From an uncultured Alphaproteobacteria bacterium (GTDB lineage: Bacteria; Pseudomonadota; Alphaproteobacteria; JAJFIK01): 59,702 nucleotides of DNA. The stretch covers positions 1-59,702 of the forward strand of contig CAZHDI010000010.1 of NCBI GenBank assembly GCA_964531285.1. The letters are read 5' to 3'. The notes under the pieces were generated by a model that saw nothing but the letters and a program-made list of their open reading frames with translations, was not told the origin of the DNA and ran no database searches. Shown piece after piece: positions 9,507-37,876 of this stretch (position 1 is the stretch's first letter; every line of letters begins with the position of its first letter). Position numbers and translations under genes: made by a program.

Positions 9507-9583
9507 AGGAGACTAGGGCGTGGAGCAGGCGTGGGCACTCCTGGACCATACGATCCAGGAGCCATAAATATGGCGGCCGTTGA

Positions 9584-11476: not shown

Positions 11477-11632
11477 TGCATCCTCCTACGATCAGACTTG
11501 AGACCTGATCATGTCATCATATGACTGATTAACATCGCCTCTCGCGTGCCGGTACAAATTTCGAGACTTCTGCCAAATTAACCGATGGGAAAGCGTAATC
11601 CGGCAAGGTGGGCCGTGCCGATAGGAGGGCAG

Positions 11633-13114: not shown

Positions 13115-13141
13115 TCCCGCCGGCGGGGAGCCCGTCCGGCC

Positions 13142-13180
13142 GTACGTCAGGTTAACACCTGTTTAGGTGTTCTGACGTAC
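13142..13180 (+). terminator. imperfect hairpin between glgA and glgP (possible attenuator/terminator)
   Basis: GTACGTCAG(gtt)AACACCT-gttt-AGGTGTTCTGACGTAC, 16 paired bases with a 3-nt bulge. Only a weak T-run follows. Confidence 0.35.
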
Positions 13181-13220
13181 TTCTGATCCTCGAGCCGTTC
13201 TCTCAAACTCGGGGTCGTTC

Positions 13221-15704: not shown

Positions 15705-15721
15705 CCCGCATACGGGGTGTC

Positions 15722-16684
15722 ATGCGGTTCAAGGCTTTCGATAGGCGGTGCGGAGGGCGAGGCCTTTCGCATGCCGCCATTGGTGTGATCGCCATTGCGT
15801 GTACCGCGTGTGCGTCGCCCCGTCATGACGGCGAGTCGTCTCTGGTCGCCCAGGGGATCCTGTCATCATTCGATGTTCCGCTTAAAGATTTGAGAGAGCG
15901 GCCCGAAGGAGGTGTTATGCGGCGCCTTCTGCACGGCTTTAGTGGCAGTTTGTCTGCCGGCATGCCGCTGGATCTGTCACAGGCAGAAACCACAGAAGGT
16001 GAGGGGCAGCGGGCGCGTGTCGGTAACACGCCGACCCTCAAGGCGACGGTGAAGTACAACCCTGTGAGTGCGTGGTTCGCGACGGGTACGGCCTATATCT
16101 ATCTTGATCGTGATCTTCAGGAGGAGTGGAATCCCGACTTCTCTTATGTCTTCGGGTATGACGATTGGCGCCCTTATACGTTCAGCTTGGTTTATTCGAA
16201 CTATGGCGGCAATCGCTTCAGCCCTGATCGGGCTCAAGGGGCGGAGGTGACCGAGTTCGATGAGGGTACGGTTTCACTGGGATGGAAGTTTCCCATTCCG
16301 GACCGGCTGGCAAAGCCCTTCGTTGTGGCATCAGATGGCGGTATCGGTTGCATCATCGGTTATAACGTCAGTCCACGGTATTTTGACTTGAGATCGTCGG
16401 AGAACCGGTCGTGGAAACAGGCTGCCTCGCTCGGCTGCAAATACATCATCACGGGGAATTGGTATCTCAACTGGACGGCGTTCTATTATCCCAAAGAGTA
16501 TCAACAACAGCCCTGGGACCCGGATTATACCTACGGATTTGGCTACTTCGACTGGCGGCCGGGAACGATTAGTCTTCAGTATAACAATTATTCGGGTAAC
16601 CGTTTTCCAGGGCGGCAGCGCGGTGACGAGACTGGGCGGTTCATCGATGGTGAATTGTCAGTTTCTTGGAGCTGGAGTTTCTGA
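15722..16684 (+). CDS. hypothetical outer-membrane beta-barrel protein with internal duplication
   Basis: Signal or possible lipobox (AIACTAC). Alternating aromatic/Gly-rich strands. Two homologous ~55-aa blocks (W[ND]PD[FY][ST]Y.FGY.DWRP...S[LV].Y[SN]NY[GS]GNRF). C-terminal Phe. The stop lies 2 nt before the next gene. Confidence 0.6.
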   Translation: MRFKAFDRRCGGRGLSHAAIGVIAIACTACASPRHDGESSLVAQGILSSFDVPLKDLRERPEGGVMRRLLHGFSGSLSAGMPLDLSQAETTEGEGQRARVGNTPTLKATVKYNPVSAWFATGTAYIYLDRDLQEEWNPDFSYVFGYDDWRPYTFSLVYSNYGGNRFSPDRAQGAEVTEFDEGTVSLGWKFPIPDRLAKPFVVASDGGIGCIIGYNVSPRYFDLRSSENRSWKQAASLGCKYIITGNWYLNWTAFYYPKEYQQQPWDPDYTYGFGYFDWRPGTISLQYNNYSGNRFPGRQRGDETGRFIDGELSVSWSWSF

Positions 16685-16686
16685 TC

Positions 16687-17934
16687 ATGACGACCGCATT
16701 CTCCTCCATGCTCATCGGACGGCGGAAAAACCTCCTGATCGTTGATGATAGCCAAAGCTTCCGCTTTGTTTTGAAAAAACTGCTGTCCCGCCTCGGTTTC
16801 ACGGTGTTTGAGGCCGGCGACGGCCAGGCCGCGCTTGATATTCTTGCATCCGAGGACATCCCTGTCGTGATCTGCGATTGGGAAATGCCGGGCATGGATG
16901 GTATCGAATTCTGCAGAACGGTGCGGCGTGCCTATCCGGATGACTATAAATATATCCTGATGCTGACGTCCCATGATGAAAGTACGGCCATTGAAGTCCT
17001 TTTCGATGCCGGAGCAGACGATTATATCACCAAGCCACCGGCGATGACGGCTCTGCGTGCCCGTCTTCTGGGCGCCCTGAGGATCGTTTCGCGCTATGAC
17101 GATCTGCGATGGTTCAATAGGGAGCTTCAGGAAAAGAAGGACGCCATCGATAAGTCCTTCGCCAGTATCCGGGACGATCTGCTGGTCGCTGAAACGATCC
17201 AACGTCAATATCTGCCGAATGACTTCGACCCTATTGGTGCGGTTCGCTTCGCCGGGGAATTTTTGCCCGCGTTCCATACGTCAGGCGATATCTTCAATTA
17301 CGTCCCGATCAACGAGACGCAGATTTGTCTGTTTTCGGCCGATGTATCCGGGCATGGCGTGGCGTCGGCCCTCCTTGCCATCACAATCGGTCAAACACTG
17401 TGCTTCGATGGAGATGCGTCGGATGCCACCTTTGTGGTGGATCGGGCCGGCAAGCGCAGAGCGCGTGATCCGGCAGAGGTCGTTGATTGGCTCAATCAAC
17501 GTTTCGCCAATGGCCAGACGGATCATTATTTTACGATAACCTATTGTGTTTTGGACTTGGAAACCTCTGCCCTGCGATATTGTCAGGCAGGGCATTGCCC
17601 GATCATTCGGGTGAATGCGGCCGGTGAGGCATCATTGATCGGGGCCGGGGGGCTGCCGGTTGGAATGCTACCAACCGCCCGATATGAGACCTGTACGATC
17701 GATCTTGAACCTGGTGACCGGATCTATCTCTACTCGGATGGTATCTCGGAAGCCGAGAACGAAACAGATGATATGTACGGACCTGAGTCTATGATGGCAT
17801 CCTTGTCCCAATCGCGGACGGCGTCGCTTGAAGGATCGATCGAACGGCTCTTGCAAGCGGTACAGAGCTGGCAGGCCGCACAGTCTTTCCTTGATGACGT
17901 GTCGATCATCAGTTTCGAATACCAGGCCGCATGA
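16687..17934 (+). CDS. response-regulator receiver fused to PP2C/SpoIIE phosphatase (RsbU-like)
   Basis: REC: LLIVDDSQSF ... VVICDWEMPGMDG ... DDYITKP. PP2C: SGDIFNY ... FSADVSGHGVASAL ... LYSDGISEA. Confidence 0.9.
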   Translation: MTTAFSSMLIGRRKNLLIVDDSQSFRFVLKKLLSRLGFTVFEAGDGQAALDILASEDIPVVICDWEMPGMDGIEFCRTVRRAYPDDYKYILMLTSHDESTAIEVLFDAGADDYITKPPAMTALRARLLGALRIVSRYDDLRWFNRELQEKKDAIDKSFASIRDDLLVAETIQRQYLPNDFDPIGAVRFAGEFLPAFHTSGDIFNYVPINETQICLFSADVSGHGVASALLAITIGQTLCFDGDASDATFVVDRAGKRRARDPAEVVDWLNQRFANGQTDHYFTITYCVLDLETSALRYCQAGHCPIIRVNAAGEASLIGAGGLPVGMLPTARYETCTIDLEPGDRIYLYSDGISEAENETDDMYGPESMMASLSQSRTASLEGSIERLLQAVQSWQAAQSFLDDVSIISFEYQAA

Positions 17935-17960
17935 GCCTGGAAAATGAGGAGATTTGACGA

Positions 17961-18293
17961 ATGCTTATGACCAAGCGGCAGGAAGGCCAGCGTTTGATCC
18001 TGGCTTTGCATGAAAAACGTCTTGATGCGGCCGTTGCGGTCGATTTCAAGGAGCAGGTTGTTCAAGACGTCGACAGCATTGGGACTGATGTCGTCATCGA
18101 TCTTACGGATGTCGAATTCATCGACAGCTCAGGGCTGGGTGCTCTCGTTGCCGTGCTGAAACATGTGAGCGGGAAGGGCCGACTCGTTCTGACGGGGTTG
18201 CGCACGAAGACCGAGCAGATCTTCAAACTGACCCGCATGGACACGGTCTTCGAAATTTATCCGTCCATTGACGAAGCGCTTGAGGCGGCTTGA
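17961..18293 (+). CDS. STAS-domain anti-sigma-factor antagonist (RsbV/SpoIIAA-like)
   Basis: 110 aa. FIDSSGLGALV contains the canonical phosphorylatable Ser. Confidence 0.9.
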   Translation: MLMTKRQEGQRLILALHEKRLDAAVAVDFKEQVVQDVDSIGTDVVIDLTDVEFIDSSGLGALVAVLKHVSGKGRLVLTGLRTKTEQIFKLTRMDTVFEIYPSIDEALEAA

Positions 18294-18314
18294 TCCTTCA
18301 GCAGAGAGAGTGTC

Positions 18315-19505: not shown

Positions 19506-19506
19506 G

Positions 19507-19974
19507 ATGATGCCGGCCGGGCCGATCGCACAATACCGGATCGCCAGCACATTTCATGCTGTTCGCACCTTGCTCACTGATCTGGGTGACCGTCTTTCCG
19601 GGCAGGTCGATGAAGCAACACTTGCGCGGCTTGAACTATGCTTGGCCGAAGCGCTGAACAACATAGTCGAGCACGGATATCAGGAAAATCCGAATGGCGA
19701 GATCCTGGTGGATACGGACTGGGACGGCGAGGCGGTGCGGACCCGTATCACGGATTTTGGCCGATCCAGTCAAGACGCAAACGGAGCATATCCGGAACCG
19801 GTCCAGGGGCAGCCGGACGATTTGAAAGAGGGTGGGTATGGACTGTCCCTCATTCATACGATTGCCTCGCGCATTGACTATAACTCCGAGGGCGGCCGGA
19901 ATACAACGACGATCTGGCAATCCATAGGGGCAGTGTACCCCGATACGCAGACGGAACGCTTCCCGCAAGCTTAG
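19507..19974 (+). CDS. GHKL anti-sigma-type serine kinase (RsbW/SpoIIAB-like)
   Basis: N-box EALNNIVEHG and G-box GGYGLSLI. ATG at 19507 lies 1 nt after the upstream TAG. The track ORF (19315) overlaps the previous gene out of frame. Confidence 0.85.
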   Translation: MMPAGPIAQYRIASTFHAVRTLLTDLGDRLSGQVDEATLARLELCLAEALNNIVEHGYQENPNGEILVDTDWDGEAVRTRITDFGRSSQDANGAYPEPVQGQPDDLKEGGYGLSLIHTIASRIDYNSEGGRNTTTIWQSIGAVYPDTQTERFPQA

Positions 19975-20064
19975 CGTTTCAAGCTGTGGGTGTTTGTATC
20001 AAGCCGGCGGTCCGGCATGCCGTTTCGTATATCCCCCAACCGGTTTATGCGTCCGGCTGAACCC

Positions 20065-20408
20065 GATGAACTCTTTCCGCTAATACGCGGCCGGATTGCA
20101 AAGACCCATTTGCGGGACGGCGGCGGCGTCGATGCGGTCAGTACGTGACGGTGACGTCATCGGGACGTCGTGCTGACGGACTGGTCCATGCCGGCTATGG
20201 GCGGTTTTAGGGCAACTGTCCGGATACGCCAATATAAAGCCGAGCACGACTACAGGCCGGCGAAAATCCTTGATCTGAGTGCCAATGCCATAACCGAGTA
20301 ACGGGAAGAAGGTCTTGCGGTTGGAATGGACCGGTATCTGAGCAAGCCTATTGTGAAGGGGGATCTGCTCGCCGCGTCTACGCCGCCCAACATCCATCGT
20401 TCGCTTAA
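20065..20408 (+). pseudogene. decayed response-regulator receiver domain (three in-frame stops)
   Basis: One frame reads ...GVDAVST*R*RHRDVVLTDWSMPAMGGFRATVRIRQY...ILDLSANAITE*REEGLAVGMDRYLSKPIVKGDLL. The REC hallmarks (acceptor D, S/T, K) are kept. The frame is broken by TGA at 20146, TGA at 20152 and TAA at 20299, and the N-terminal DD strand is missing. Confidence 0.6.
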
Positions 20409-20471
20409 CCCTCTATTCTCCGCTGGCGTCTTATCCTTTGAGGGCAGGACATTATCGACCGGCGGGCGAGG

Positions 20472-22313
20472 GTGCGCGTGACGCAGTTTTACTTTGAGGC
20501 CTATGAGGACCGGGTGCCGGACCCACCGGTGCCCTACTCGATGATACGCGAGATGCTTTGGCAGTTTCTCGCGACCCTGAGTCTTGCAGTCGGAGGATGG
20601 TACATCCTGTGGCGGTGGACCGAGTCGCTCAATATGGACGCACTTTGGTTTGCCATTCCGCTCGCGACTGCCGAGACTTGCGCATTTATCGGTCTCATCC
20701 TGTTCTATATCAATCTGTGGTCGACAAGAGATCCGGAGCGTCAGCCTGCGCCCTATCTGAAAAGCGAATGCGGTATCGCCAACAGTGCGCCGGATGAGCC
20801 GATCTCGGTCGATATCTTTTTTACGAGCTATGATGAGGATCCCGAACTTGTTCGGTTGAGCCTTCGGGACGCGAAGCGCGTCTATTATCCGCATCCCATC
20901 GATATTCGCATTCATGTCCTGGACGATGGTCGCCGTGAGGCCATGCGGACGGTTGCCGAGGAAGAGCAGGTCGGCTACATCACCCGATCGAACAATGTTG
21001 GGTTCAAGGCTGGAAATCTGCGTAATGGCCTTGAGAAAACATCGGGTGATTTCATCGTGATCTGCGACGCGGACACCCGCCCGTTTCCCACGCTTCTTGA
21101 TCACACCCTGGGGTATTTCAGAGATCCAAATGTCGCTTGGGTTCAAACCCCGCAATGGTTTTTCGACCTTCCTGCAGGCCGTACCCTTGACCGAATCTGG
21201 GAGGATTATGCCGGTCCGCTCGGCCGGGTCGCGGGAAAAGGTATTCAGTCGATCTTTGGGCAGATCACTTTGGGCAAGGATCCTTTCGATAACGATCCCA
21301 AGATGTTTTATGATGTGATCCAGCGCCGCAGGAATGCGCATAACGCCTCATTCTGTTGCGGGGCAGGGTCGATCCATCGCCGGGAAGCCGTGATGGATGC
21401 CGCTTTGAAGGCCTATGCTAACCAAATCGGCCGGTCGGTCGACACGGTGGCCCAAACGGTGGACGATCCGGACCTGCGCCGGGCTCTGCGCAGCGAAATG
21501 GTTCGGGCTCATGTTCGCGACACGGAGTTTACCCCCTACAAGTTTCACGTTTCCGAGGATATCTACACGTCAATTGTGCTCCACGGTGACAAGGATCGGC
21601 GCTGGAAGTCCGTTTTTCATCCAGATGTCGAAACCAAGATGCTCTCGCCGCAGGACCTGCAAGCCTGGACCGTACAGCGCTTCAAATATGCCGGCGGCTC
21701 CCTCGACATCGCTCTTCATGACAACCCGATCCTGACATCCGATATGACGGTCGGCCAGAAACTCATGTATGCCGCGACGTTCTGGTCTTATCTGTCGGGG
21801 CTTTGGAACATCGTGTTTTTATCCGCACCGATCATTTATTTGTTTACCGGTATCGCTCCGGTGGAGGCCTATTCCCACGACTTTTTTGTCCGCATTATTG
21901 CCTTTCTGATTCTGAATGAACTGGCCATGATGGTCGGCACTTGGGGCGTGGAAAACTATCGCGGCAAAGCATATTATCTGGCGTTCTTCCCCCTCAACCT
22001 TCGCGCGCTCTGGACCGTTCTGCGCAGCCAAAAGATCAAGTTCCCGACGACGCCTAAGGAGCGTCAGGACGGGACCTTCCTTTTTCTTGTCCGCCCCCAG
22101 CTGGCTGTCATGATCCTGACGGCCATTGCGATCGTCTACGGCTTCTTCTCATGGCTACAATCGGGGTCCTATAGCGATCTGAGCGCCTATATCGCGAATG
22201 TATTCTGGGGACTGAACAACATTCTTTCATTGGGCGTGATCGTGACAGCCGCACTTTGGAAGCCGCCGACTGAGAAGCCCGAGTTCGCGCCTCTGGCGCT
22301 GAAAGAGGTTTGA
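20472..22313 (+). CDS. processive family-2 glycosyltransferase, cellulose-synthase (BcsA)-like, no PilZ domain
   Basis: TM helices flank a GT-A domain: FFTSYDEDP, VLDDG, ICDADT, QTPQWF, FCCGAGSIHRR, SEDIYTS (the TED equivalent), QRFKYAGG (the QxxRW equivalent), FPTTPKE. GTG start. Ends right after the last TM helix. Confidence 0.9.
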   Translation: MRVTQFYFEAYEDRVPDPPVPYSMIREMLWQFLATLSLAVGGWYILWRWTESLNMDALWFAIPLATAETCAFIGLILFYINLWSTRDPERQPAPYLKSECGIANSAPDEPISVDIFFTSYDEDPELVRLSLRDAKRVYYPHPIDIRIHVLDDGRREAMRTVAEEEQVGYITRSNNVGFKAGNLRNGLEKTSGDFIVICDADTRPFPTLLDHTLGYFRDPNVAWVQTPQWFFDLPAGRTLDRIWEDYAGPLGRVAGKGIQSIFGQITLGKDPFDNDPKMFYDVIQRRRNAHNASFCCGAGSIHRREAVMDAALKAYANQIGRSVDTVAQTVDDPDLRRALRSEMVRAHVRDTEFTPYKFHVSEDIYTSIVLHGDKDRRWKSVFHPDVETKMLSPQDLQAWTVQRFKYAGGSLDIALHDNPILTSDMTVGQKLMYAATFWSYLSGLWNIVFLSAPIIYLFTGIAPVEAYSHDFFVRIIAFLILNELAMMVGTWGVENYRGKAYYLAFFPLNLRALWTVLRSQKIKFPTTPKERQDGTFLFLVRPQLAVMILTAIAIVYGFFSWLQSGSYSDLSAYIANVFWGLNNILSLGVIVTAALWKPPTEKPEFAPLALKEV

Positions 22314-22315
22314 CA

Positions 22316-23644
22316 ATGACATTCACCAAAGGCGTTATGCGTGCCCGCAGTCACATCGTCTTTCTGGTCGGTCTGTGTGCGGCCTTCACACTGATTGTCC
22401 ATCTCGATGCTCTTGGTGCCCGGCAGCGTCCGATCTCGATTGATGTCTTCGAGATTGCTACATCGGAGCAGTCGGCTCCGGCGAAGCCGGTCGGTGCACT
22501 GACCGCTCAGGAAGAAGCGGCTGCGCAAACAGCATGGGTTTACTTCGAGAATAACCTCCAACCGGAGACAGGATTGGTAAACTCCGTTGACGGATATCCG
22601 TCGACGACCATGTGGGACCAGGCCTCCTACATGCTCGCGCTGATTTCGGCGTATCGGCTTGATGTCATCGACTCGAGCATGTTCGACCGGCGAATGACGA
22701 GCCTTTTGACGGCCCTTGCGGCGCTTCCCTTGTTCGACGGCGCGCTCCCGAACAAGGCGTACTCAACCACGTCACTCGCCATGACCGATTATGAAGGTCA
22801 AGTCAGTGAACGGGGCATTGGCTGGTCGGCGCTGGATATCGGACGGATCATGGTGCCGCTCAATATTGTGGTCTGGAATTATCCGCGCTATGCCGGCCTC
22901 GTCAAAGACGTCGTCCAGCACTGGCAGATCGACGCTATGCTGGATGATGGATTTATGATTGGAACACGGACCGATGCGAGTGACAGAACGGAGCGCGTTC
23001 AGGAGGGTCGGATCGGATACGAGGAGTATGCCGCCGCGTCTCTGGGGCTTCTGGGCTATGACGCGAAGCGAGCCGGCAGCTACACGGACTTTCTCCAATT
23101 CGAGCCGATTTACGGTGTCGATGTACCGGTCGATGTGCGCGACGTCAGGAGCTATGGGGCTCATAACTATGTGGTGAGTGAGCCCTACATTCTGGCCGCA
23201 CTGGAATATGGGTGGACATCGGATATGCAGGAATTTGCCTATCGCGTTTATGCGGCGCAGGAACAGCGCTTCCGCCGGACAGGACAACTCACTGCGGTCA
23301 GTGAGGACAATGTCGATCGGCCGCCGTATTTTGTCTACAACACGGTTTTTGCGAATGGGCGGCGCTGGAACACGATCTCCGAGGACGGAGAAGATGTGAG
23401 CGACTTACGCTCTGTTAGCACTAAGGCAGCATTCGGTTGGTACGTTCTTTATCCTAATGACTATACCACCCGGCTCGTCGAAAAGGTCATTGCGCTGTCC
23501 GATCCGGAGAAGGGCTTCTATTCCGGGTGGTATGAAGTGCTCGATGAACCGAACACGGCCATCACGGCCAACACCAATGGAATCATTCTGCAAAGCTTGC
23601 ACTTCAAGAAGTTCGGCAAGCTCGTTCAGCTTTATACGGACTAA
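22316..23644 (+). CDS. periplasmic (alpha/alpha)6-glycosidase-like / DUF3131-like protein, paralogue 1
   Basis: Signal anchor. AWVYFENN...TGLVNSVDGYPSTTMWDQASY ... LPNKAY ... QEGRIGYEEYAA ... AHNYVVSEPY ... PPYFVYNTVF. ATG lies 2 nt after the GT2 stop, with RBS GAAAGAGG. Confidence 0.75.
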   Translation: MTFTKGVMRARSHIVFLVGLCAAFTLIVHLDALGARQRPISIDVFEIATSEQSAPAKPVGALTAQEEAAAQTAWVYFENNLQPETGLVNSVDGYPSTTMWDQASYMLALISAYRLDVIDSSMFDRRMTSLLTALAALPLFDGALPNKAYSTTSLAMTDYEGQVSERGIGWSALDIGRIMVPLNIVVWNYPRYAGLVKDVVQHWQIDAMLDDGFMIGTRTDASDRTERVQEGRIGYEEYAAASLGLLGYDAKRAGSYTDFLQFEPIYGVDVPVDVRDVRSYGAHNYVVSEPYILAALEYGWTSDMQEFAYRVYAAQEQRFRRTGQLTAVSEDNVDRPPYFVYNTVFANGRRWNTISEDGEDVSDLRSVSTKAAFGWYVLYPNDYTTRLVEKVIALSDPEKGFYSGWYEVLDEPNTAITANTNGIILQSLHFKKFGKLVQLYTD

Positions 23645-23656
23645 AGGATAGCGCGG

Positions 23657-25153
23657 ATGCGGGGCAGTCTGAAACAGGCGGCGAACGCTTTGTCTTGTAC
23701 ACGCCGCATTGGTGCGCTTGGTGCGCTCGCTCTGCTCATTGCCTGTACCGGACCCGATGCGTGGTTACTTGACGAAAGTGATGACCTCATACCGCACGCG
23801 GCTGACCTGAGACGGGATGGCTTCGGTCCGCGACGGTCTTATCCAACGCGGCGGGGGCCGTTGACCGAGCGCGAGATGGACATGGCTCGGATCGCCTGGA
23901 CCTATTTCGAGAATAACATGCAGGAGGCAACGGGCCTCGTAAACGCCGTGAATGATTATCCGTCTACAACTCTTTGGGATACAGCATCCTATCTTGGCGG
24001 CATGGTGGCGGCCTACGAATTGGGCATCATCGATCGAAACGAGTTTTCACGGCGTCTTGTGAAGATACTCGGTACACTGAACAGTATGGACTTCTTCCGA
24101 GGGGAGCTTCCCAATAAGGTCTACAATACCCAAACGGCCGAGAAGGTGAATTACGCCAATCAACCGGGCGAGATCGGGTTCTCGGCGCTCGATCTTGGCC
24201 GGCTGCTGATTTGGCTCGAGATCATCAAGAACCGCTATCCGGAACGGGCCAATGCGATCGATACCTTTGTCCTGCGCTGGAATTTCTGTAACGTCGTCGA
24301 TAATCGCGGCATGATGTACGGCGCCATCGTCGGCCCTGATAATGAGACACAGTATGTCCAGGAAGGCCGGCTCGGTTATGAAGAGTATGCGGCGAAGGGA
24401 TTTCAGCTTTGGGACATCGATACCGATCTTGCCTCCCGTCCGGAACCCTACAGCATTCTGACGACGTATGGCGTCAAAGTCCCCTATGATTCGCGGGATC
24501 CACGCACGTTGGATGCGCATAACTATGTGGTGTCGGAAAGTTATGTGCTGGACGGTATTGAGCTGAACTGGGATCACGCAGACGACACGACGTCCAGCGA
24601 CCGGCATCACAGCGATCGTATCGCCGAGAAGTTCGGCAATCTCATCTATGAAGCCCAGGTTGCCAGATACCGGGCGACAGGCATCTTAACGGCGCGTACC
24701 GAGCATCAACTCGCCGAGCCGCCCTACTTCGTTTATGATACGATCTATACGGACGGCTATGCGTGGAACACTATCACCGAAGACGGAAAGCATGTCCCGC
24801 AATTCGCTGCGATAGCGCTAAAGGGGGCCCTTGGGATGTGGGCGGTTTGGGAGACGGAGTACACGGACCTCCTGTTCGATACGATTGCCGATCTTTATCA
24901 TCCTGAGAAGGGATTCTACGAGGGCATCTTTGAAAATGGCAGTGGGGTGATCGAGACATATACGTCCAATAATAACGGTATCATGCTCGAGGCGCTTCTT
25001 TATAAGGCGCAGGGGAAGCTTTTACGTCCGTCAACGGAGAAGACAATCTGGGATCAGACGATGCGGGACAACTTCCTGTGGGACCGGCACAATGGTAAAG
25101 CCAAGTGCTATCCGCGCAAGAGGTTGGAGGGCACGAATGAGCCGGAGAATTAA
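23657..25153 (+). CDS. DUF3131-like lipoprotein, paralogue 2
   Basis: Lipobox LLIAC. AWTYFENN...TGLVNAVNDYPSTTLWDTASY ... QEGRLGYEEYAA ... AHNYVVSESY ... PPYFVYDTIY. Confidence 0.75.
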   Translation: MRGSLKQAANALSCTRRIGALGALALLIACTGPDAWLLDESDDLIPHAADLRRDGFGPRRSYPTRRGPLTEREMDMARIAWTYFENNMQEATGLVNAVNDYPSTTLWDTASYLGGMVAAYELGIIDRNEFSRRLVKILGTLNSMDFFRGELPNKVYNTQTAEKVNYANQPGEIGFSALDLGRLLIWLEIIKNRYPERANAIDTFVLRWNFCNVVDNRGMMYGAIVGPDNETQYVQEGRLGYEEYAAKGFQLWDIDTDLASRPEPYSILTTYGVKVPYDSRDPRTLDAHNYVVSESYVLDGIELNWDHADDTTSSDRHHSDRIAEKFGNLIYEAQVARYRATGILTARTEHQLAEPPYFVYDTIYTDGYAWNTITEDGKHVPQFAAIALKGALGMWAVWETEYTDLLFDTIADLYHPEKGFYEGIFENGSGVIETYTSNNNGIMLEALLYKAQGKLLRPSTEKTIWDQTMRDNFLWDRHNGKAKCYPRKRLEGTNEPEN

Positions 25154-26546
25154 AGTACTCTGGCTGGTTGTTGTCCTGTCAATGGGTGTGTCGTTGACCG
25201 GATGCGGTGTTGCCTATCGCGGACTGGAGACAGCAGCCACGAGCCTTGCGCAGTCGTCGCTCTGGTATGTTGGCCGCCGAGGACCGCTGTCGGAGAAGGA
25301 ACTGTCCTGGGCTCGAACGGCCTGGACATATTTCGAGAACAATTACCATCCGCAAACCGGGCTCGTCAATGGCGCCGACCGCTACCCGGTCGTCAGTATG
25401 TGGCATGTCGGCGATTATCTCGCCGCGCTCCATAGCGCCCGCCAACTTGGTATCATTGAAGAGCGGATATACGATCAGCGTTTGAGTGCTGTCCTGGCCC
25501 GTCTCTCCGGACTGCCGCTGGCCTTCGGCGAATTGCCGAACACGCTCTACAATGCGCAAAGCGGAGTGATGGTGAACTATGCCAATCAACCGGAGGAAAT
25601 CGGTTGGGCGATTATCGATATTGGCAGGGTCCTCATATGGCTGAGTATCGTGAAAGCGGATGTTCCTCATTTCGCGGAGTATATCGACAGGATTGTCTTG
25701 CGATGGTCGTTCTGCAAGGCCCTTGACGATGAGGGGCGTCTTCAAAGCGCCGTAAAGATCAATGACCGCCTACAGACGATCCCTGAGACAACCATCGGAT
25801 ATACCGATTACGCACAAACGGGCTTCAGGCTCTGGGGACTTTCGACGGTGCCCCGCTTGATGTCAGACCCGGATAACCGCGTCGATATTTTTGGTATCTC
25901 CTTTCCGCTCGACAGTGATTGGGCCCGCCAGTCCGGTACCTACGGGGCGCTGGTATCGGCGCCGTTTCTTTATGCGGGCCTTGAGACACATTGGGATTTT
26001 CCGGTGGCGTTGGGAGCGGCCGATGCTCAGAGTGCCTTCTTTCGTGATCTTGCCAACCGGGTCTATGATGTTCAGGAAAGCAGGTTCGAGCTTGAAGGTA
26101 TCTCAACAGCACGAACCGACCATCAACTCAGCCGTCCGCCATTCTATGTGCAGGATTCCATTTTCGGGGCCGGTTATCCGTGGTCGACATTATCCGATAA
26201 CGGGGAGAACAGACCAGACCTCGCCCTTGTGTCGACACGGGCCGTATTCGGCATGTGGGCACTGTGGAATACATCCTATACCGATCATCTCATGCGGCTG
26301 ATTGAGCCGCTTTTCGATCCGCAACGCGGTTGGTTCGAGGGTCGATACGAGAACAGCGCGGGGTATGAACCCATGATCACCTTATCGACCAATACAATGG
26401 TGCTCCAGGCGCTTGCCTTTAAACAGAACGGTCGCCTGTTTCAGCCGGTTCGCAAGAAGAGCCTCATCGGTCATGTCCTATCCGATGCATTCCGGGTTAC
26501 CGGACAGTGTCTTGCGAATCGTCGGGAGGATGACGACGATGCGTAA
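25137..26546 (+). CDS. DUF3131-like lipoprotein, paralogue 3 (most divergent)
   Basis: Lipobox SLTGC. AWTYFENN...TGLVNGADRYPVVSMWHVGDY. Conserved acidic blocks are altered (PETTIGYTDYAQ, LVSAPF). The start overlaps the paralogue 2 stop by 17 nt. Confidence 0.75.
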   Translation: MSRRIKVLWLVVVLSMGVSLTGCGVAYRGLETAATSLAQSSLWYVGRRGPLSEKELSWARTAWTYFENNYHPQTGLVNGADRYPVVSMWHVGDYLAALHSARQLGIIEERIYDQRLSAVLARLSGLPLAFGELPNTLYNAQSGVMVNYANQPEEIGWAIIDIGRVLIWLSIVKADVPHFAEYIDRIVLRWSFCKALDDEGRLQSAVKINDRLQTIPETTIGYTDYAQTGFRLWGLSTVPRLMSDPDNRVDIFGISFPLDSDWARQSGTYGALVSAPFLYAGLETHWDFPVALGAADAQSAFFRDLANRVYDVQESRFELEGISTARTDHQLSRPPFYVQDSIFGAGYPWSTLSDNGENRPDLALVSTRAVFGMWALWNTSYTDHLMRLIEPLFDPQRGWFEGRYENSAGYEPMITLSTNTMVLQALAFKQNGRLFQPVRKKSLIGHVLSDAFRVTGQCLANRREDDDDA

Positions 26547-28578
26547 TGGCGTACTGATTGTCCTGACCTGGCTTTTCGTTTCGATGCCATGGTCCGGTTC
26601 GCTGTCTTGGGCGCGGACGGACGCTTATCTCGATGTCTTGCGTCAGGGGGTGGTGCTGTCACAAGTCGGCCGGTGGGAGCAGGCCGCTGATCATTGGGCA
26701 AAGGGCCGGACCGCGCTCGATGCGACGGAAGGAATGTCGGATCAGGATCTGGCGCTGCTTGGCATTCTCCAGGCAATGGCTCTTGAGAAGACAGGCAATG
26801 CTCAGGCCTACGAGGTCTGGACGGATGCCCTGGCGGCCTTTCTGAAAGCGGGAACGCGATGGGAGGATTTTCGCGCCACGCTGGCAGGTCACTTGCGCGG
26901 AATGCAAATTTCGCGCGGATCCACCTTCTCGACTGAGGGCGTCATTACCGCCGATCAGAAGCCCGGTGACTTAATCCTTTCAAGCTTGGATTCCCTTCTT
27001 CAGTTCACGACTTATGACGGGCCAGCCCCGGGGCTTCAGCCGGTTCAACATCGCGTGGAAGAGCCTCTGACGGTTGCCCGATCGTATTTTCCGAGACCAC
27101 CCGCTATCTTGGCTGAGGACAATTCCACGGGCCCCAGGGGGCGGACCATCAGCGCTCCACAGGCTGGCGAGGGCGAGCGGTCGTCATCGAGAGTGATGCG
27201 CGGCGTACCCGAGATAGGGCCGGATGAGCTGAGTTCTGATCCAACGCAAAATCAATCGAAAACGGACGAATTTTCAGCAGGGTCGGGGGCACTCAATGGC
27301 GAGAGCGCCTTCAGTATGCGTTTCCCACCGGCGAGAAGCGGGGCCGAGGGTCCATCCGGGATGCTTTCGGGACCGACGCTAAGCCGTCGCCTCGATCGTC
27401 GTTCAGCCGGTGCTTTGAGCGAGGCTGATCGGGACGCCGCACGCCGGGCCTGGCGGTATATCGTAATGAACCGTCAGTCGAACACGGGGCTCGTGAACTC
27501 GGTTCAGACGTATCCCTATACGACCATGTGGGATCTGGGCAGCAGCATTGCGGCGATCGTCAGTGCTTTCCGGATTGGGATCATTGATGAGTGGGTGGTC
27601 GAAGACTATCTCGATAGAATGCTCCGCACATTAAGCGACATACCGCTTTATGACGGTGTCCTTCCGAACAGGGAATACGATACGCGTTCGGCGATGATGA
27701 CCGACCTGCGCAATCGGCAATCGTCCGTCGGCAGCGGGTATTCGTCCATCGATGTGGCGAGGCTATTGGTCTGGCTGGCTGTCATCAAGGAGCATTTTGA
27801 CACTTTTGCCGAACGGGTTGAGTCCATCGTGAGCCGATGGGATCTGACGCGCGTACATGACGGCGACGAATTTTACCGGGAGCTTCTCACGGCGGAAGGC
27901 ATCGACCGCAAGCAGGAAGGCCGGATGGGATATGAGCAGTATACGGCTCTTGCGTTTGCCCATTGGGGGATCGTTGTCCCTGGTGCGCATGACACTATGG
28001 AGTCGCGAACCGTGCGCCTCCACGATATTCCGATTCTCAAGGATACCCGGACGCCGAACCACCTCAATCTGGAACCGTTCCTGCTGGCCTTGATGGAGTT
28101 CGAAACACGGATGCCCGTGGTCGAAACACAGGCGGCGCGTCTGCTTGCGGCGCATGTAAAGCGGTACGAAGATACCGGCATTCTGTCCCTGTATACGGAG
28201 GATTCCATCGATCAAGCGCCGTGGTTTCTGTACAACACGGTCCTCGCAGATGCAGGGCCCTGGCGCTGCTTGACCTCCGCCGGGAAAGAGGCCGACCGGT
28301 GTCAAAGGCTGTCGACAAAGGCGGCGTTTGCGGCAGAGGCAGTCTTCGATTTGGACTACACGCGCATCGCCCGGCAACAGGTCATCGAGGGTGTGGATAT
28401 GCGCCGGGGCTATTATGCGGGCATCTATGAAGACGGAACGATGAACCGTGTTTTGACGGTCAATACCAATGCCATCATTCTCGAAGCGCTCGCTTTCAAA
28501 GCAGGTGGATCGAGGGCGTTCCTCGCCAATGCGTATGCGGATCCTGGCACAGCGACGGGCAGCCGTGCAGCGCGCTGA
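26539..28578 (+). CDS. DUF3131-like protein, paralogue 4, with N-terminal helical (TPR-like) region and low-complexity linker
   Basis: Signal peptide (SGSLSWA), ~130 aa helical region, ~150 aa Pro/Ser/Gly-rich linker. Then AWRYIVMN...TGLVNSVQTYPYTTMWDLGSS ... QEGRMGYEQYTA ... APWFLYNTVL. ATG overlaps the previous stop (ATGCGTAA). Confidence 0.75.
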   Translation: MRNGVLIVLTWLFVSMPWSGSLSWARTDAYLDVLRQGVVLSQVGRWEQAADHWAKGRTALDATEGMSDQDLALLGILQAMALEKTGNAQAYEVWTDALAAFLKAGTRWEDFRATLAGHLRGMQISRGSTFSTEGVITADQKPGDLILSSLDSLLQFTTYDGPAPGLQPVQHRVEEPLTVARSYFPRPPAILAEDNSTGPRGRTISAPQAGEGERSSSRVMRGVPEIGPDELSSDPTQNQSKTDEFSAGSGALNGESAFSMRFPPARSGAEGPSGMLSGPTLSRRLDRRSAGALSEADRDAARRAWRYIVMNRQSNTGLVNSVQTYPYTTMWDLGSSIAAIVSAFRIGIIDEWVVEDYLDRMLRTLSDIPLYDGVLPNREYDTRSAMMTDLRNRQSSVGSGYSSIDVARLLVWLAVIKEHFDTFAERVESIVSRWDLTRVHDGDEFYRELLTAEGIDRKQEGRMGYEQYTALAFAHWGIVVPGAHDTMESRTVRLHDIPILKDTRTPNHLNLEPFLLALMEFETRMPVVETQAARLLAAHVKRYEDTGILSLYTEDSIDQAPWFLYNTVLADAGPWRCLTSAGKEADRCQRLSTKAAFAAEAVFDLDYTRIARQQVIEGVDMRRGYYAGIYEDGTMNRVLTVNTNAIILEALAFKAGGSRAFLANAYADPGTATGSRAAR

Positions 28579-37700: not shown

Positions 37701-37876
37701 GGCGTTCTCCCTGAGCTGCGGCTCGATGGCCGGCACTCGTTTGCTTGTTTATGCCTGTCAGCTTAGCGGCGATGGAGCGCGCCGGTCCACACGTCCGTCG
37801 GACGGGTCGTCTTTGGCCCGCCGTGGTGCGCATGATACGGTCCCGCCGCGCGAGCGCACAGGCGGGGCTCTGATCC

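What the first reader, a model, noticed from the sequence alone, without database searches (positions are those of the whole stretch)
20472..22313. BcsA-like GT2 with Q-R-F-K-Y instead of QxxRW, S-E-D instead of T-E-D, an extra ~45-aa insert, and no PilZ
The catalytic core is clearly cellulose-synthase-like (DDG, CDAD, QTPQWF, FPTTPKE). The acceptor-gripping QxxRW reads TVQRFKYAGG, with Tyr where the invariant Trp normally sits. The TED base motif reads SED. A segment (MDAALKAYANQIGRSVDTVAQTVDDPDLRRALRSEMVRAHVRDTEFTPYKF) is inserted between the FCCGAGSIHRR block and SED. The protein ends a few residues after its last TM helix, so c-di-GMP gating through PilZ is impossible. These changes point to a different polymer or linkage and a different regulatory input than canonical BcsA.
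Basis: seen in the sequence. Interest (0 to 1): 0.5.

Follow-up and report, generated by a model that had tools for sequence, protein, structure and literature searches.

The report
Tyr-variant glucan synthase with partner-switch control
This gene encodes a cellulose-synthase-like membrane enzyme from a large, uncharacterised bacterial family that replaces the otherwise invariant tryptophan with tyrosine, and its conserved neighbours suggest it makes a non-cellulose (probably beta-1,2) glucan switched on by protein phosphorylation rather than by c-di-GMP.

Summary
ORF 20472..22313 (+), 613 aa, has a BcsA fold (AlphaFold pLDDT 90.9; TM 0.74 to E. coli BcsA). All catalytic motifs are present, but it reads SED for TED and QRFKY for QxxRW. 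It carries two helical inserts and has no PilZ domain.

The Ser and Tyr are not private mutations. They are 100% fixed in a large clade that runs from 76% down to about 33% identity and spans several phyla. All 63 canonical relatives compared keep Thr and Trp.

In 80 genome loci the gene sits in a conserved operon:
- 2-4 periplasmic DUF3131 proteins (78/80), whose model matches only beta-1,2-glucanases and the Cgs cyclase domain in its top 19 PDB hits
- a response-regulator PP2C phosphatase, a STAS protein and an RsbW-like kinase (72-75/80)
- a UDP-glucose pyrophosphorylase (50/80)
- an outer-membrane-like protein (55/80)

A sigma factor is nearby in only 3/80 loci, and a natural RsbW::synthase fusion exists.

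Best reading: this is the synthase of an undescribed periplasmic beta-glucan system. The linkage is probably beta-1,2, and control is by partner switching. The linkage and the direct regulation are inferred, not shown. GH9 endoglucanase genes in 27/80 loci keep a beta-1,4 or mixed product possible.

The parts
20472..22313 (+). BcsA-fold processive GT2 synthase of the 'Tyr clade', 613 aa. It has 6 TM helices (24-50, 55-82, 427-459, 469-489, 537-564, 567-594) and interface helices. There is no PilZ domain.
   Evidence: ORF; Pfam GT2; PDB sequence hits to BcsA and CesA; AlphaFold pLDDT 90.9; Foldseek to BcsA TMq 0.74, E=5e-29
20922..20930 (+). DDG motif (D151 D152 G153), the nucleotide-binding Asp pair.
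   Evidence: Invariant in the 54-sequence clade alignment and shared with canonical relatives
21063..21074 (+). CDAD motif (DxD = D199, D201).
   Evidence: Invariant
21162..21281 (+). Insert 1 (residues 231-270): helix 239-262 plus a short strand.
   Evidence: Gap in the BcsA alignment; secondary structure; low conservation (0.51)
21351..21368 (+). FCCGAG motif (BcsA has FFCGS).
21381..21527 (+). Insert 2 (residues 304-352): helical hairpin H304-327 plus H333-350.
   Evidence: It is the least conserved cytosolic segment, and its length varies from 27 to 100 residues across the clade.
21552..21560 (+). SED motif (S361 E362 D363). D363 is the equivalent of the BcsA catalytic base.
   Evidence: Aligned to TED. 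Ser is 100% fixed in the clade against Thr 100% in canonical relatives.
21675..21689 (+). QRFKY motif (Q402 to Y406). Tyr occupies the acceptor-stacking Trp position of QxxRW.
   Evidence: Aligned to QRIRW. Y406 is invariant. Tyr is 100% against Trp 100%.
22038..22058 (+). KFPTTPK, the FxVTxK gating loop (F524, T527, K529).
   Evidence: Conserved in both clades. The model is locally flexible here, pLDDT 67 for 521-530.
22310..23644 (+). DUF3131 paralogue A, 444 aa, with an N-terminal signal anchor. Predicted periplasmic (alpha/alpha)6 barrel.
   Evidence: Pfam E=3e-146; hydrophobic segment 16-34; model pLDDT 91.7; the Foldseek top 19 hits are all beta-1,2-glucan enzymes
23657..25153 (+). DUF3131 paralogue B, 498 aa, with a lipoprotein-type signal (LLIAC).
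25092..26546 (+). DUF3131 paralogue C, 484 aa, with a lipoprotein-type signal (SLTGC).
26413..28578 (+). DUF3131 paralogue D, fused to an N-terminal helical domain of about 300 aa. That domain is a separate gene in 37-38 of 80 other loci. The likely start is Met43 at 26539.
19507..19974 (+). RsbW-like serine kinase (HATPase_c_2). Its start lies 1-4 nt after the stop of the upstream gene.
   Evidence: Pfam E=2e-23; NCBIfam RsbW/SpoIIAB; start site; present in 72-73 of 80 loci; fused to the synthase in P0096
18315..19505 (+). Sugar-1-phosphate nucleotidyltransferase, most likely a UDP-glucose pyrophosphorylase.
   Evidence: PDB 8x7s 'UTP--glucose-1-phosphate uridylyltransferase', E=1e-108 over residues 1-354; present in 50 of 80 loci
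17961..18293 (+). STAS anti-anti-sigma-type protein, 110 aa, with a DSSG phosphorylation motif.
   Evidence: ORF; Pfam STAS E=5e-17; present in 74-75 of 80 loci
16666..17934 (+). Response regulator with a PP2C (SpoIIE-type) phosphatase domain.
   Evidence: Pfam; present in 72-73 of 80 loci
15722..16684 (+). Conserved 320-aa protein of unknown family. It has a signal or lipoprotein-like N-terminus, internal repeats and a C-terminal ...SWSWSF. It may be an outer-membrane beta-barrel; that is inference only.
   Evidence: No Pfam or NCBIfam hit; sequence; present in 55 of 80 loci
19975..20471 (+). Decayed receiver-domain gene (three in-frame stops) in the gap between the kinase gene and the synthase gene.
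   Evidence: Translation; Pfam Response_reg E=5e-12
11585..15704 (+). Glycogen synthase (GT5) and glycogen phosphorylase genes directly upstream on the same strand. They are a possible glucose-1-phosphate supply and are linked only in the closest relatives.
   Evidence: Pfam; GlgP in 4 of 80 loci and GlgA in 1 of 80

Best explanation
**What it is.** The gene encodes the inner-membrane synthase of a widespread, so far uncharacterised, synthase-dependent beta-glucan system.

**Proposed pathway.**
1. The co-encoded pyrophosphorylase makes UDP-glucose. In this genome the substrate may come from glycogen through the adjacent phosphorylase.
2. The BcsA-fold GT2 polymerises glucose and threads the chain through its own six-helix channel into the periplasm.
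3. In the periplasm, two to four membrane-anchored or lipoprotein DUF3131 (alpha/alpha)6-barrel enzymes cut or transglycosylate the chain, and possibly cyclise it. These enzymes are structural relatives of beta-1,2-glucanases and of the Cgs cyclisation domain.
4. A conserved outer-membrane-like protein may let the product out.

**Linkage.** The active site keeps every catalytic residue. The residues that hold the acceptor sugar are changed: Trp to Tyr in QxxRW, Thr to Ser in TED, and FFCGS to FCCGAG. This fits an acceptor presented through a different hydroxyl. The product is therefore most likely a beta-1,2-linked glucan (about 50% for that linkage) and not cellulose.

**Regulation.** Activity is set by a partner switch rather than by c-di-GMP/PilZ. 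A signal phosphorylates the response-regulator PP2C phosphatase. The phosphatase dephosphorylates the STAS protein. STAS then captures the RsbW-like kinase. That step relieves or creates a contact on the synthase itself.

**Shown here:** fold, motifs, clade-wide substitutions, operon conservation, predicted periplasmic location of the partners, and fold class of the partners.

**Inferred:** donor sugar, linkage, processing chemistry, and direct protein-level regulation.
For: **Fold and motifs.** AlphaFold pLDDT is 90.9. Foldseek gives BcsA TMq 0.74 and plant CesA 0.65-0.70, against 0.35-0.45 for the hyaluronan and chitin synthases and 0.47-0.51 for Cgs. D151/D152, K179-A-G-N, D199xD201, Q225xP, E362-D363, Q402-R403 and F524/T527/K529 are conserved in both clades.

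**Clade signature.** Ser361 and Tyr406 are 100% fixed in 35 members, against Thr and Trp 100% in 63 canonical relatives. The pattern holds down to about 33% identity. The family is large and spans Alpha-, Beta-, Gamma- and Deltaproteobacteria, Acidobacteria and Ignavibacteria at 56-76% identity.

**Partners.**
- DUF3131 is present in 78 of 80 loci, and also next to members at 41-50% identity.
- All four window paralogues have signal, anchor or lipobox N-termini.
- The DUF3131 profile hits the GH189 cyclisation domain 8wy1 at E=1e-4, and Cgs residues 972-1093 at E=0.29.
- The top 19 Foldseek hits are all beta-1,2-glucan enzymes of GH144, GH192, GH194, GH189 and GH162 (E from 6e-11 to 2e-6). Other (alpha/alpha)6 enzymes appear only above 1e-5.

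**Donor.** The nucleotidyltransferase matches PDB 8x7s 'UTP--glucose-1-phosphate uridylyltransferase' at E=1e-108 and is present in 50 of 80 loci.

**Periplasmic-glucan flavour.** An Acyl_transf_3 gene lies next to the synthase in 19 of 80 loci, all Rhodobacterales-type. This is the family of the OPG succinyltransferase OpgC (my knowledge). Four DUF3131 genes of Shewanella piezotolerans form a module in a salt-shock network (PMC8371737).

**Regulation.**
- STAS is present in 74-75 of 80 loci, the RsbW-like kinase in 72-73 and RR-PP2C in 72-73. A sigma factor is present in only 3 of 80.
- The in-frame RsbW-like::synthase fusion P0096 is seen on four contigs.
- A STAS gene lies 8 nt upstream of a 45%-identical member in a Bacteroidota-like contig.
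- There is a precedent for a partner switch acting on a polysaccharide enzyme in Anabaena (bioRxiv 10.64898/2026.04.08.717354).
Against: - No product has been analysed, and linkage cannot be read from sequence.
- GH9 endo-beta-1,4-glucanase-like genes (27/80) and GH2 beta-mannosidase-like genes (30/80), both with signal peptides, sit in the same operon in many loci. This suggests beta-1,4 bonds or other sugars in at least some products.
- DUF3131 matches the beta-1,2 clan only at TM 0.54-0.62 and 9-15% identity. The three clan-defining residues could not be checked. One group of that clan (PgSGL4) has no known substrate (PMC12102758).
- More distant Tyr-clade members lie in other contexts, for example UDP-GlcNAc 2-epimerase plus GDSL esterase. 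Tyr alone therefore does not specify beta-1,2-glucan.
- The UDP-glucose enzyme is missing from 30 of 80 loci.
- Direct regulation rests on gene order and one fusion family. Three Aliivibrio loci do have an adjacent sigma factor, which fits classical transcriptional control.
- The 3D position of the inserts could not be measured.
Confidence: 0.55

Rival explanations
1. The enzyme makes cellulose or another beta-1,4-containing glucan, for example a mixed-linkage or branched glucan. On this view the Tyr/Ser changes are neutral variants of the BcsA site, and the DUF3131 proteins act like BcsZ or KORRIGAN-type trimming enzymes.
For: BcsA is by far the closest solved relative: E=4e-75 with the family profile and TMq 0.74. 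GH9 genes with signal peptides lie in the operon in 27 of 80 loci; their closest solved relatives are endo-1,4-glucanases (3x17, E=2e-97). Tyr can also stack on a sugar ring (general chemistry).
Against: - Trp is fully conserved in all characterised bacterial beta-glucan synthases whatever the linkage (PMC6821405). Tyr is 100% fixed here, which points to a selected difference.
- The score is far below the cellulose-synthase equivalog cut-off.
- No BcsB or BcsC-type gene was found among the neighbours scanned.
- GH9 is absent from this window and from 53 of 80 loci, whereas DUF3131 is nearly universal.
- BcsZ ranks only 38th among the DUF3131 structural matches.
Confidence: 0.2
2. The product is not a glucan. 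It could be a mannan or an amino-sugar polymer, with the neighbouring nucleotidyltransferase making a different NDP-sugar.
For: - The best NCBIfam hit of the nucleotidyltransferase is a mannose-1-phosphate guanylyltransferase model, although below its cut-off (206.7 against 440 bits).
- GH2 genes related to beta-mannosidases are present in 30 of 80 loci.
- A 39%-identical Tyr-clade member sits next to a UDP-GlcNAc 2-epimerase.
Against: - The nucleotidyltransferase is much closer to a solved UTP--glucose-1-phosphate uridylyltransferase (E=1e-108) than to GDP-mannose enzymes (E=8e-39).
- The nucleotide and donor-site motifs match UDP-glucose-using BcsA.
- Glycogen genes lie alongside in this window.
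- All the closest structural relatives of DUF3131 act on glucans.
Confidence: 0.08
3. The partner-switching genes act in the classical way. They release an unlinked sigma factor that transcribes the operon, and the synthase itself is unregulated or regulated by something else.
For: RsbW-type kinases are classically anti-sigma factors (established knowledge; NCBIfam RsbW/SpoIIAB hits). Three Aliivibrio loci have a sigma-70-family gene directly upstream of the synthase.
Against: - 77 of 80 loci have no sigma gene within 10 kb.
- The RsbW-like domain is fused in frame to the synthase N-terminus in P0096, on four contigs.
- A STAS gene alone abuts the synthase in a Bacteroidota-like contig.
- The synthase has a conserved cytosolic N-terminal peptide that BcsA lacks (Y7, E12 and P16 are at least 90% conserved).
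Confidence: 0.3
4. The Tyr and Ser changes mark a catalytically dead or decaying enzyme.
For: The Trp of QxxRW is regarded as a signature residue of processive GT2 synthases (PMC6821405).
Against: Every catalytic and gating residue is invariant. The protein is 56-76% identical across several phyla. The operon is conserved and includes a dedicated sugar-activating enzyme.
Confidence: 0.02

Closest known systems
BcsA, bacterial cellulose synthase catalytic subunit (Rhodobacter sphaeroides 4hg6/4p00; E. coli 7lby/9b8v)
   Same: - Same GT-A domain set in a TM channel, with interface helices.
- D, DxD, ED, KAGN and QxP motifs are present.
- The FxVTxK gating loop is present.
- It is the best sequence and structure match.
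   Different: - Tyr replaces the acceptor-stacking Trp, Ser replaces Thr in TED, and FCCGAG replaces FFCGS.
- There are two extra helical inserts.
- Only 6 TM helices are present; the first two of BcsA are missing.
- There is no PilZ domain.
- No BcsB, BcsC or BcsZ partner was found.
- The score is 211.7 bits against a 699.1-bit equivalog cut-off.
Pseudomonad NdvB / 'Orphan' BcsA-like synthases (GH17-GT2 fusion, cyclic beta-1,3-glucan; PMC10237404)
   Same: The logic is the same: a BcsA-like GT2 without PilZ, coupled to a periplasmic glucan-remodelling enzyme, and proposed to make a periplasmic (cyclic) glucan.
   Different: There the periplasmic partner is a fused GH17 TIM barrel. Here the partners are separate DUF3131 (alpha/alpha)6 barrels present in 2-4 copies. 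The family and the predicted linkage also differ.
[quoted passage not shown]
   Same: The neighbouring DUF3131 proteins share fold and weak sequence similarity with the GH189 cyclisation domain. Both systems pair a GT-A polymerase with such a domain.
   Different: - In Cgs all the domains are on one giant polypeptide, and the cyclase domain is cytoplasmic (my knowledge).
- Here the barrels are separate secreted proteins.
- The polymerase is BcsA-type, not Cgs-type: Foldseek TMq to Cgs is only 0.47-0.51.
- There is no GH94 domain.
OpgH/OpgG osmoregulated periplasmic glucan system
   Same: It has a GT2 membrane synthase, periplasmic beta-1,2-glucan-acting proteins and (in some species) an OpgC-type acyltransferase. 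An Acyl_transf_3 gene accompanies the synthase in 19 of 80 loci.
   Different: The synthase is not OpgH-like: the NCBIfam MdoH model gives 17 bits against a cut-off of 884. The periplasmic partners are (alpha/alpha)6 barrels, not the GH186 OpgG/OpgD fold.
BgsA mixed-linkage glucan synthase with the Bgr partner-switching system of Sinorhizobium meliloti (Baena et al. 2019, cited), and HenR/All4160 of Anabaena
   Same: A partner switch (PP2C phosphatase, STAS protein, RsbW-type kinase) controls the production of a polysaccharide without a dedicated sigma factor. BgsA is also a BcsA-like synthase without PilZ.
   Different: - BgsA keeps QxxRW and is still activated by c-di-GMP; its partner switch acts upstream of that signal, as the title of the cited paper indicates.
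- All4160 is a STAS-fused priming sugar transferase, not a BcsA-type synthase.
- In the present system no cyclase gene and no c-di-GMP site was found in the window.
Plant CesA class-specific region (CSR)
   Same: Insert 2 lies at the same place in the sequence, between the FxxGxG strand and the (T/S)ED helix (my knowledge of the CesA motif order). Plant CesA and CslF6 are the second-best structural matches.
   Different: The insert is much shorter, forms a simple helical hairpin, and shows no sequence similarity to the CSR. Its role is unknown.

Membership tests
BcsA (UDP-forming cellulose synthase catalytic subunit) | Reaches the curated equivalog score (TIGR03030 / PRK11498) | tested here: not met
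   211.7 bits against a 699.1 cut-off, and 169.8 against 992
BcsA (UDP-forming cellulose synthase catalytic subunit) | D, DxD, (T)ED catalytic residues and KAGN/QxP nucleotide-site motifs | tested here: met
   D151/D152, K179-A-G-N, D199/D201, Q225/P227 and E362/D363 are invariant and shared with canonical relatives
BcsA (UDP-forming cellulose synthase catalytic subunit) | QxxRW with the acceptor-stacking Trp | tested here: not met
   QRFKY is aligned on QRIRW. Tyr is 100% fixed in the clade, against Trp 100% in 63 canonical relatives.
BcsA (UDP-forming cellulose synthase catalytic subunit) | C-terminal PilZ domain for c-di-GMP activation | tested here: not met
   No PilZ hit in Pfam. The protein ends 19 residues after the last TM helix.
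BcsA (UDP-forming cellulose synthase catalytic subunit) | Co-encoded BcsB (and usually BcsC and BcsZ) | tested here: not met
   The neighbours from 11585 to 31219 carry GT5, phosphorylase, PP2C, STAS, NTP transferase, HATPase_c_2, DUF3131 (four copies) and peptidase S9. No Bcs partner was found.
Membrane-integrated processive GT2 synthases (BcsA/CesA/Csl superfamily) | GT-A domain fused to a TM channel with interface helices and an FxVTxK gating loop | tested here: met
   High-confidence model; TMq 0.74 to BcsA and 0.65-0.70 to CesA/CslF6; F524, T527 and K529 conserved
OpgH (MdoH) glucan synthase | Matches the OpgH family model | tested here: not met
   17 bits against a cut-off of 884
[quoted passage not shown] | Cgs-type GT domain on one polypeptide with GH189 and GH94 domains | tested here: not met
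   The family profile gives no PDB sequence hit to Cgs at E<=0.01. Foldseek TMq is 0.47-0.51. The protein is a single-domain synthase of 613 aa.
SGL clan of beta-1,2-glucan-acting (alpha/alpha)6 enzymes (GH144/162/189/192/193/194), tested on the neighbouring DUF3131 proteins | (alpha/alpha)6-barrel fold closest to clan members | tested here: met
   The top 19 Foldseek hits are all clan members, E from 6e-11 to 2e-6, TMq 0.49-0.62. The profile hits GH189 8wy1 at E=1e-4.
SGL clan of beta-1,2-glucan-acting (alpha/alpha)6 enzymes (GH144/162/189/192/193/194), tested on the neighbouring DUF3131 proteins | Clan-defining residues equivalent to XcSGL E239, F286 and Y367 (PMC12102758) | not tested
   No residue-level structural alignment or model coordinates were available. 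Invariant acidic residues do exist (D176, E232, D275, E299), but their equivalence is unknown.
SGL clan of beta-1,2-glucan-acting (alpha/alpha)6 enzymes (GH144/162/189/192/193/194), tested on the neighbouring DUF3131 proteins | Sequence membership of an existing CAZy family of the clan (GH192/GH194 of Photobacterium or Endozoicomonas; GH144) | tested here: not met
   phmmer and two profile searches of the PDB did not hit 8xuj, 8xuk, 8xul or 5gzh at E<=10. DUF3131 is a separate sequence family.
SGL clan of beta-1,2-glucan-acting (alpha/alpha)6 enzymes (GH144/162/189/192/193/194), tested on the neighbouring DUF3131 proteins | Activity on beta-1,2-glucan | not testable with these tools
   Needs enzymology
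Partner-switching system (RsbU/RsbV/RsbW type) | PP2C phosphatase, STAS antagonist with a phosphorylatable Ser, and a GHKL serine kinase encoded together | tested here: met
   RR-SpoIIE; STAS with DSSG; HATPase_c_2 with RsbW/SpoIIAB hits; conserved together in 72-75 of 80 loci
Partner-switching system (RsbU/RsbV/RsbW type) | A cognate sigma factor as the output | tested here: not met
   No sigma-70-family ORF in the window matched, and only 3 of 80 loci have one nearby. An unlinked sigma factor cannot be excluded.

The most novel reading that the evidence does not exclude
This family would be a third, BcsA-type class of beta-1,2-glucan synthase, alongside Cgs and OpgH. The Tyr-for-Trp acceptor platform, together with Ser-ED and FCCGAG, would be what redirects glucosyl transfer to O2. 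The secreted chain would be cyclised or sized by periplasmic GH189-like DUF3131 enzymes. The synthase would be switched on and off post-translationally by direct binding of a partner-switch kinase or STAS protein. That would make it the first BcsA-fold synthase gated by serine phosphorylation signalling instead of c-di-GMP.
Probability: 0.3. Interest if true: 0.85.

Novelty: new variant of a known kind. Interest (0 to 1): 0.66.

Why it matters
**Linkage control.** Processive GT2 synthases (cellulose, curdlan, mixed-linkage glucan, chitin, hyaluronan) all keep the Trp of QxxRW. What sets linkage specificity in them is still an open question. A large natural clade with an invariant Tyr at that position, and a small set of co-varying active-site changes, is a ready-made experiment on linkage control.

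**An unknown glucan pathway.** If the product is a beta-1,2-glucan, this would be a previously unknown and very widespread route to that polymer. It would cover Vibrio, Photobacterium, Shewanella, Rhodobacterales, Thiothrix, Desulfoluna and many uncultured lineages. It would also give a function to the DUF3131 family, which would become a candidate new glycoside hydrolase or transglycosylase family.

**Regulation.** The system offers a tractable case of a partner-switching module that appears to control a membrane enzyme rather than a sigma factor.

Tried and rejected
1. **DUF3131 as an existing CAZy family.** I suspected the DUF3131 genes were the published Photobacterium/Endozoicomonas beta-1,2-glucanases (GH192/GH194). 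This was rejected: no sequence hit to 8xuj or 8xuk by phmmer or by profiles. The relation is only at fold level and through a weak GH189 profile match.
2. **Insert position in 3D.** I wanted to measure whether insert 2 covers the active-site cleft or gating loop. Model coordinates are not exposed to the script environment, so this was not possible. Only the secondary structure and the sequence position are reported.
3. **RNA input.** I looked for an RNA element such as a c-di-GMP riboswitch. Rfam at gathering thresholds found nothing in the whole window.
4. **Promoters and terminators.** The scan found no more than expected by chance.
5. **Literature.** Searches for DUF3131, PF11329, partner-switching plus glycosyltransferase, and beta-1,2-glucan plus cellulose synthase found no paper characterising this operon. 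Absence from the held library is not proof of absence. A search for PDB code 8X7S found nothing. The 'CugP-type' label for the pyrophosphorylase therefore rests on my memory; only the depositors' molecule name is a tool result.
6. **Sigma-factor output.** A classical sigma factor as the output was considered and down-weighted, because only 3 of 80 loci have one nearby.
7. **Missing DNA.** The contig of the most distant clade member, P0165, had no DNA available.
8. **Brucella lead.** Brucella BMEI1837, annotated 'DUF3131 domain-containing protein', is Cgs from memory. I used this only as a lead.

Full report
**1. The observation**

The ORF 20472..22313 (+) is present: GTG start, 613 aa. It corresponds to a public gene call of 611 aa on a contig of the same length as the window. 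Pfam sees only GT2-type domains and no PilZ. The NCBIfam cellulose-synthase equivalogs are hit far below their cut-offs, 211.7 against 699.1 bits.

phmmer against the PDB finds BcsA of E. coli (E=1e-33) and of Rhodobacter sphaeroides. In the printed alignment:
- 'vsed' lies on 'vted' and 'qrfkyagg' lies on 'qrirwarg', so the Trp is substituted, not shifted.
- Residues about 308-359 are unaligned.
- Residues about 242-272 are also unaligned.

An AlphaFold model built on a 54-sequence family alignment is confident: pLDDT 90.9, pTM 0.88. It shows:
- two N-terminal and four C-terminal TM helices, plus interface helices
- insert 1 as a long helix (239-262)
- insert 2 as a helical hairpin (304-327 and 333-350)
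- a flexible gating-loop region (pLDDT 67 at 521-530)
- a disordered tail after the last TM helix

Foldseek ranks E. coli BcsA first (TMq 0.74, E=5e-29). Plant CesA and CslF6 follow at 0.65-0.70. The hyaluronan and chitin synthases (0.35-0.45) and Cgs (0.47-0.51) are far lower.

**2. The substitutions define a clade**

Among the 120 closest database clusters, 110 read [VITL]QRFKY and 108 read HVSEDI. An exhaustive search of 1.84 billion cluster representatives gave 2384 hits at E<=1e-10. Their motifs fall into two clean classes:
- H-x-S-E-D, Q-x-x-[KR]-Y and FCCGA[GA], extending down to about 33% identity to the query
- [ST]-x-T-E-D, Q-x-x-R-W and FFCGS, the canonical BcsA-like proteins

I aligned 35 members of the first class with 63 of the second. 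Ser361/Thr and Tyr406/Trp are each 100% fixed within their class. Seven further positions also discriminate: D232/N, R287/K, A311/G, E387/L, M390/G, S392/A and D412/Q. All catalytic, nucleotide-site and gating-loop residues are shared between the classes.

A published comparison of BcsA, CrdS and BgsA reports the D,D,D,QxxRW signature as fully conserved. It also notes that the Thr of TED is not universal in GT2 (PMC6821405). The Tyr is therefore the remarkable change, and this clade lies outside the characterised bacterial beta-glucan synthases.

Insert 2 is the least conserved cytosolic segment (mean top-residue frequency 0.43). Its length ranges from 27 to 100 residues in the wider clade. 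It is a lineage feature rather than the defining one.

**3. The genomic context is a conserved operon**

In the window the gene order on the + strand is:
1. glycogen synthase
2. glycogen phosphorylase
3. a 320-aa unknown protein
4. response regulator with a PP2C domain
5. STAS protein
6. sugar-1-phosphate nucleotidyltransferase
7. RsbW-like kinase
8. the synthase
9. four DUF3131 paralogues

A scan of one genome per species returned 80 loci, from Photobacterium, Vibrio, Aliivibrio, Shewanella, Ferrimonas, many Rhodobacterales, Noviherbaspirillum, Sphaerotilus, Caldimonas and various MAGs. Counts across these loci:

| Gene | Loci (of 80) |
|---|---|
| DUF3131 | 78 |
| STAS | 74-75 |
| RsbW-like kinase | 72-73 |
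| RR-PP2C | 72-73 |
| 320-aa unknown protein | 55 |
| Nucleotidyltransferase | 50 |
| Second small GT2 | 34 |
| GH2 (beta-mannosidase-like lipoprotein) | 30 |
| GH9 (endoglucanase-like, secreted) | 27 |
| Acyl_transf_3 | 19 |
| Sigma factor | 3 |

The commonest order is: unknown(-), RR-PP2C, STAS, nucleotidyltransferase, RsbW-like, synthase, DUF3131 x3. The accessory genes were identified. None of them (second GT2, GH2, GH9, Acyl_transf_3, sigma factor) is present in the window.

The DUF3131 link persists for members at 41-50% identity. It does not hold for a 39% member, which sits next to a GDSL esterase and a UDP-GlcNAc 2-epimerase. It also does not hold for a 45% Bacteroidota-like member, which instead has a STAS gene 8 nt upstream.

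**4. What the partners say about the product**

*Location.* All four DUF3131 paralogues begin with a signal anchor, a lipobox or a signal peptide. They therefore work outside the cytoplasm, where a BcsA-type channel would deliver its polymer.

*Sequence.* Single-sequence searches of the PDB found nothing. A 38-sequence profile hits the GH189 cyclisation domain of Thermoanaerobacter Cgs (8wy1, E=1e-4) and, weakly (E=0.29), the equivalent region of Agrobacterium and Brucella-type Cgs.

*Structure.* The AlphaFold model of paralogue A has pLDDT 91.7. Its 19 best Foldseek hits are exclusively enzymes acting on beta-1,2-glucan:
- GH144, including Chitinophaga and Xanthomonas SGL
- GH192 EeSGL1
- GH194 PgSGL3
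- the Cgs and TiCGS cyclase domain (GH189)
- fungal GH162

Unrelated (alpha/alpha)6 enzymes begin only at E>1e-5. All biochemically characterised families of this clan are specific for beta-1,2-glucan, although one group has no known substrate (PMC12102758).

*Donor.* The nucleotidyltransferase is a close homologue of PDB 8x7s, deposited as UTP--glucose-1-phosphate uridylyltransferase (E=1e-108). It is far closer to that entry than to GDP-mannose enzymes (E=8e-39). This points to UDP-glucose as the donor.

*Other hints.* The Acyl_transf_3 genes in Rhodobacterales loci recall OpgC, the succinyltransferase of periplasmic glucans (my knowledge). A network study groups four Shewanella piezotolerans DUF3131 genes in a salt-shock module.

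*Counter-evidence.* GH9 genes related to endo-1,4-glucanases are present in a third of loci.

**5. What the partners say about regulation**

The phosphatase has an N-terminal receiver domain. The STAS protein has the DSSG phosphorylation motif. The kinase matches RsbW/SpoIIAB models. Four observations argue that the output is the synthase itself rather than a sigma factor:
- A sigma gene is nearby in only 3 of 80 loci.
- P0096 is an in-frame fusion of the HATPase_c_2 domain (residues 15-143) to the complete synthase. It was seen on four independent contigs.
- The STAS gene abuts the synthase in a distant lineage.
- The synthase carries a conserved cytosolic N-terminal peptide that BcsA lacks.

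Precedents exist for partner switches acting on polysaccharide production. They involve other enzyme types or act upstream of c-di-GMP.

**6. Verdict**

The gene is not a cellulose synthase by the family's own criteria, since three defining features fail. It clearly works like one mechanically.

It belongs to a large, conserved, apparently uncharacterised clade. I found no paper on it in the held library.

My best explanation is a UDP-glucose-dependent synthase of a periplasmic or secreted beta-glucan, processed by DUF3131 enzymes and gated by a partner switch. I put overall confidence at about 0.55, and about 0.5 on the beta-1,2 linkage specifically.

I rate it a new variant of a known kind, with interest 0.66. 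The Tyr clade is a natural handle on linkage specificity in processive GT2 enzymes. The operon may be a widespread unknown route to beta-1,2-glucans with an unusual mode of control.

Noticed in passing
window 19975-20471: The 497-bp gap between the RsbW-like gene and the synthase is not empty. One frame reads a receiver domain (…DVVLTDWSMPAMGGF…GMDRYLSKPI…) broken by three in-frame stops. Pfam Response_reg gives E=5e-12. It looks like a decayed response-regulator gene. At the same position, Rhodobacterales loci have an intact Hpt-domain gene (L027:6576-7136).
   Followed up: partly
P0123 (59% identical clade member; not in the window): This Tyr-clade synthase carries a PilZ domain (PF07238, E=1.5e-4, residues 565-661) inserted just before the gating loop. 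Some members may therefore have acquired c-di-GMP control independently, at a different site from BcsA.
   Followed up: partly
P0096 and cluster members P0392-P0394 (not in the window): This is a natural in-frame fusion of the RsbW-like HATPase_c_2 domain to the N-terminus of the synthase, found on four contigs from two sources.
   Followed up: yes
L033:6055-9985 and 26-29 other loci: A GH2 (beta-mannosidase-like, lipoprotein signal) gene and a GH9 (endoglucanase-like, signal peptide) gene are inserted between the kinase gene and the synthase in Photobacterium, Ferrimonas, Shewanella and other loci. They are absent from this window. Their substrate is unknown, and they are the main argument against a pure beta-1,2-glucan.
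   Followed up: partly
L081:1405-6433 (P0129, 39% identical): A distant Tyr-clade synthase sits with a GDSL esterase, a UDP-GlcNAc 2-epimerase and an unknown 458-aa protein, and has no DUF3131 partner. The Tyr/Ser signature is therefore older than the DUF3131 association and may serve other polymers.
   Followed up: no
window 26413-27430 (N-terminal third of DUF3131 paralogue D): The extra N-terminal domain of about 300 aa in the fourth paralogue is homologous to a free-standing gene of about 330 aa that follows the DUF3131 genes in 37-38 of 80 loci (E=4e-6 to 4e-7). It has no Pfam match. By eye it looks helical and TPR-like.
   Followed up: partly
window 15722-16684: This is a conserved 320-aa protein with no family match. 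It has a lipoprotein-like N-terminus, two internal repeats (…YVFGYDDWRPYTFSLVYSNYGGNRF… and …YGFGYFDWRPGTISLQYNNYSGNRF…) and a C-terminal …SWSWSF. It may be an outer-membrane barrel and is present in 55 of 80 loci.
   Followed up: partly
window 19503-19512 and 22310-22316: Gene junctions are tight, which suggests translational coupling. The kinase ATG lies 1-4 nt after the TAG of the pyrophosphorylase gene. The end of the synthase gene overlaps the first DUF3131 ORF by 4 nt.
   Followed up: yes
window 6031-11476 (- strand): This is a type I secretion set: a HlyD-family protein, an ABC transporter and a 630-aa RTX-repeat protein with a DUF4114 domain. It appears unrelated to the glucan operon.
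   Followed up: no
window 3070-4755 and 36210-37736: Two sulfatase genes with SGSH_C domains flank the region, along with a TauD-family dioxygenase and a sodium:solute symporter.
   Followed up: no
L078:7372-9871 (Aliivibrio): In three Aliivibrio loci, a sigma-70-family gene and a GGDEF-EAL gene lie directly upstream of the synthase, and the partner-switch genes are downstream on the other strand. This is a different wiring of the same parts.
   Followed up: partly
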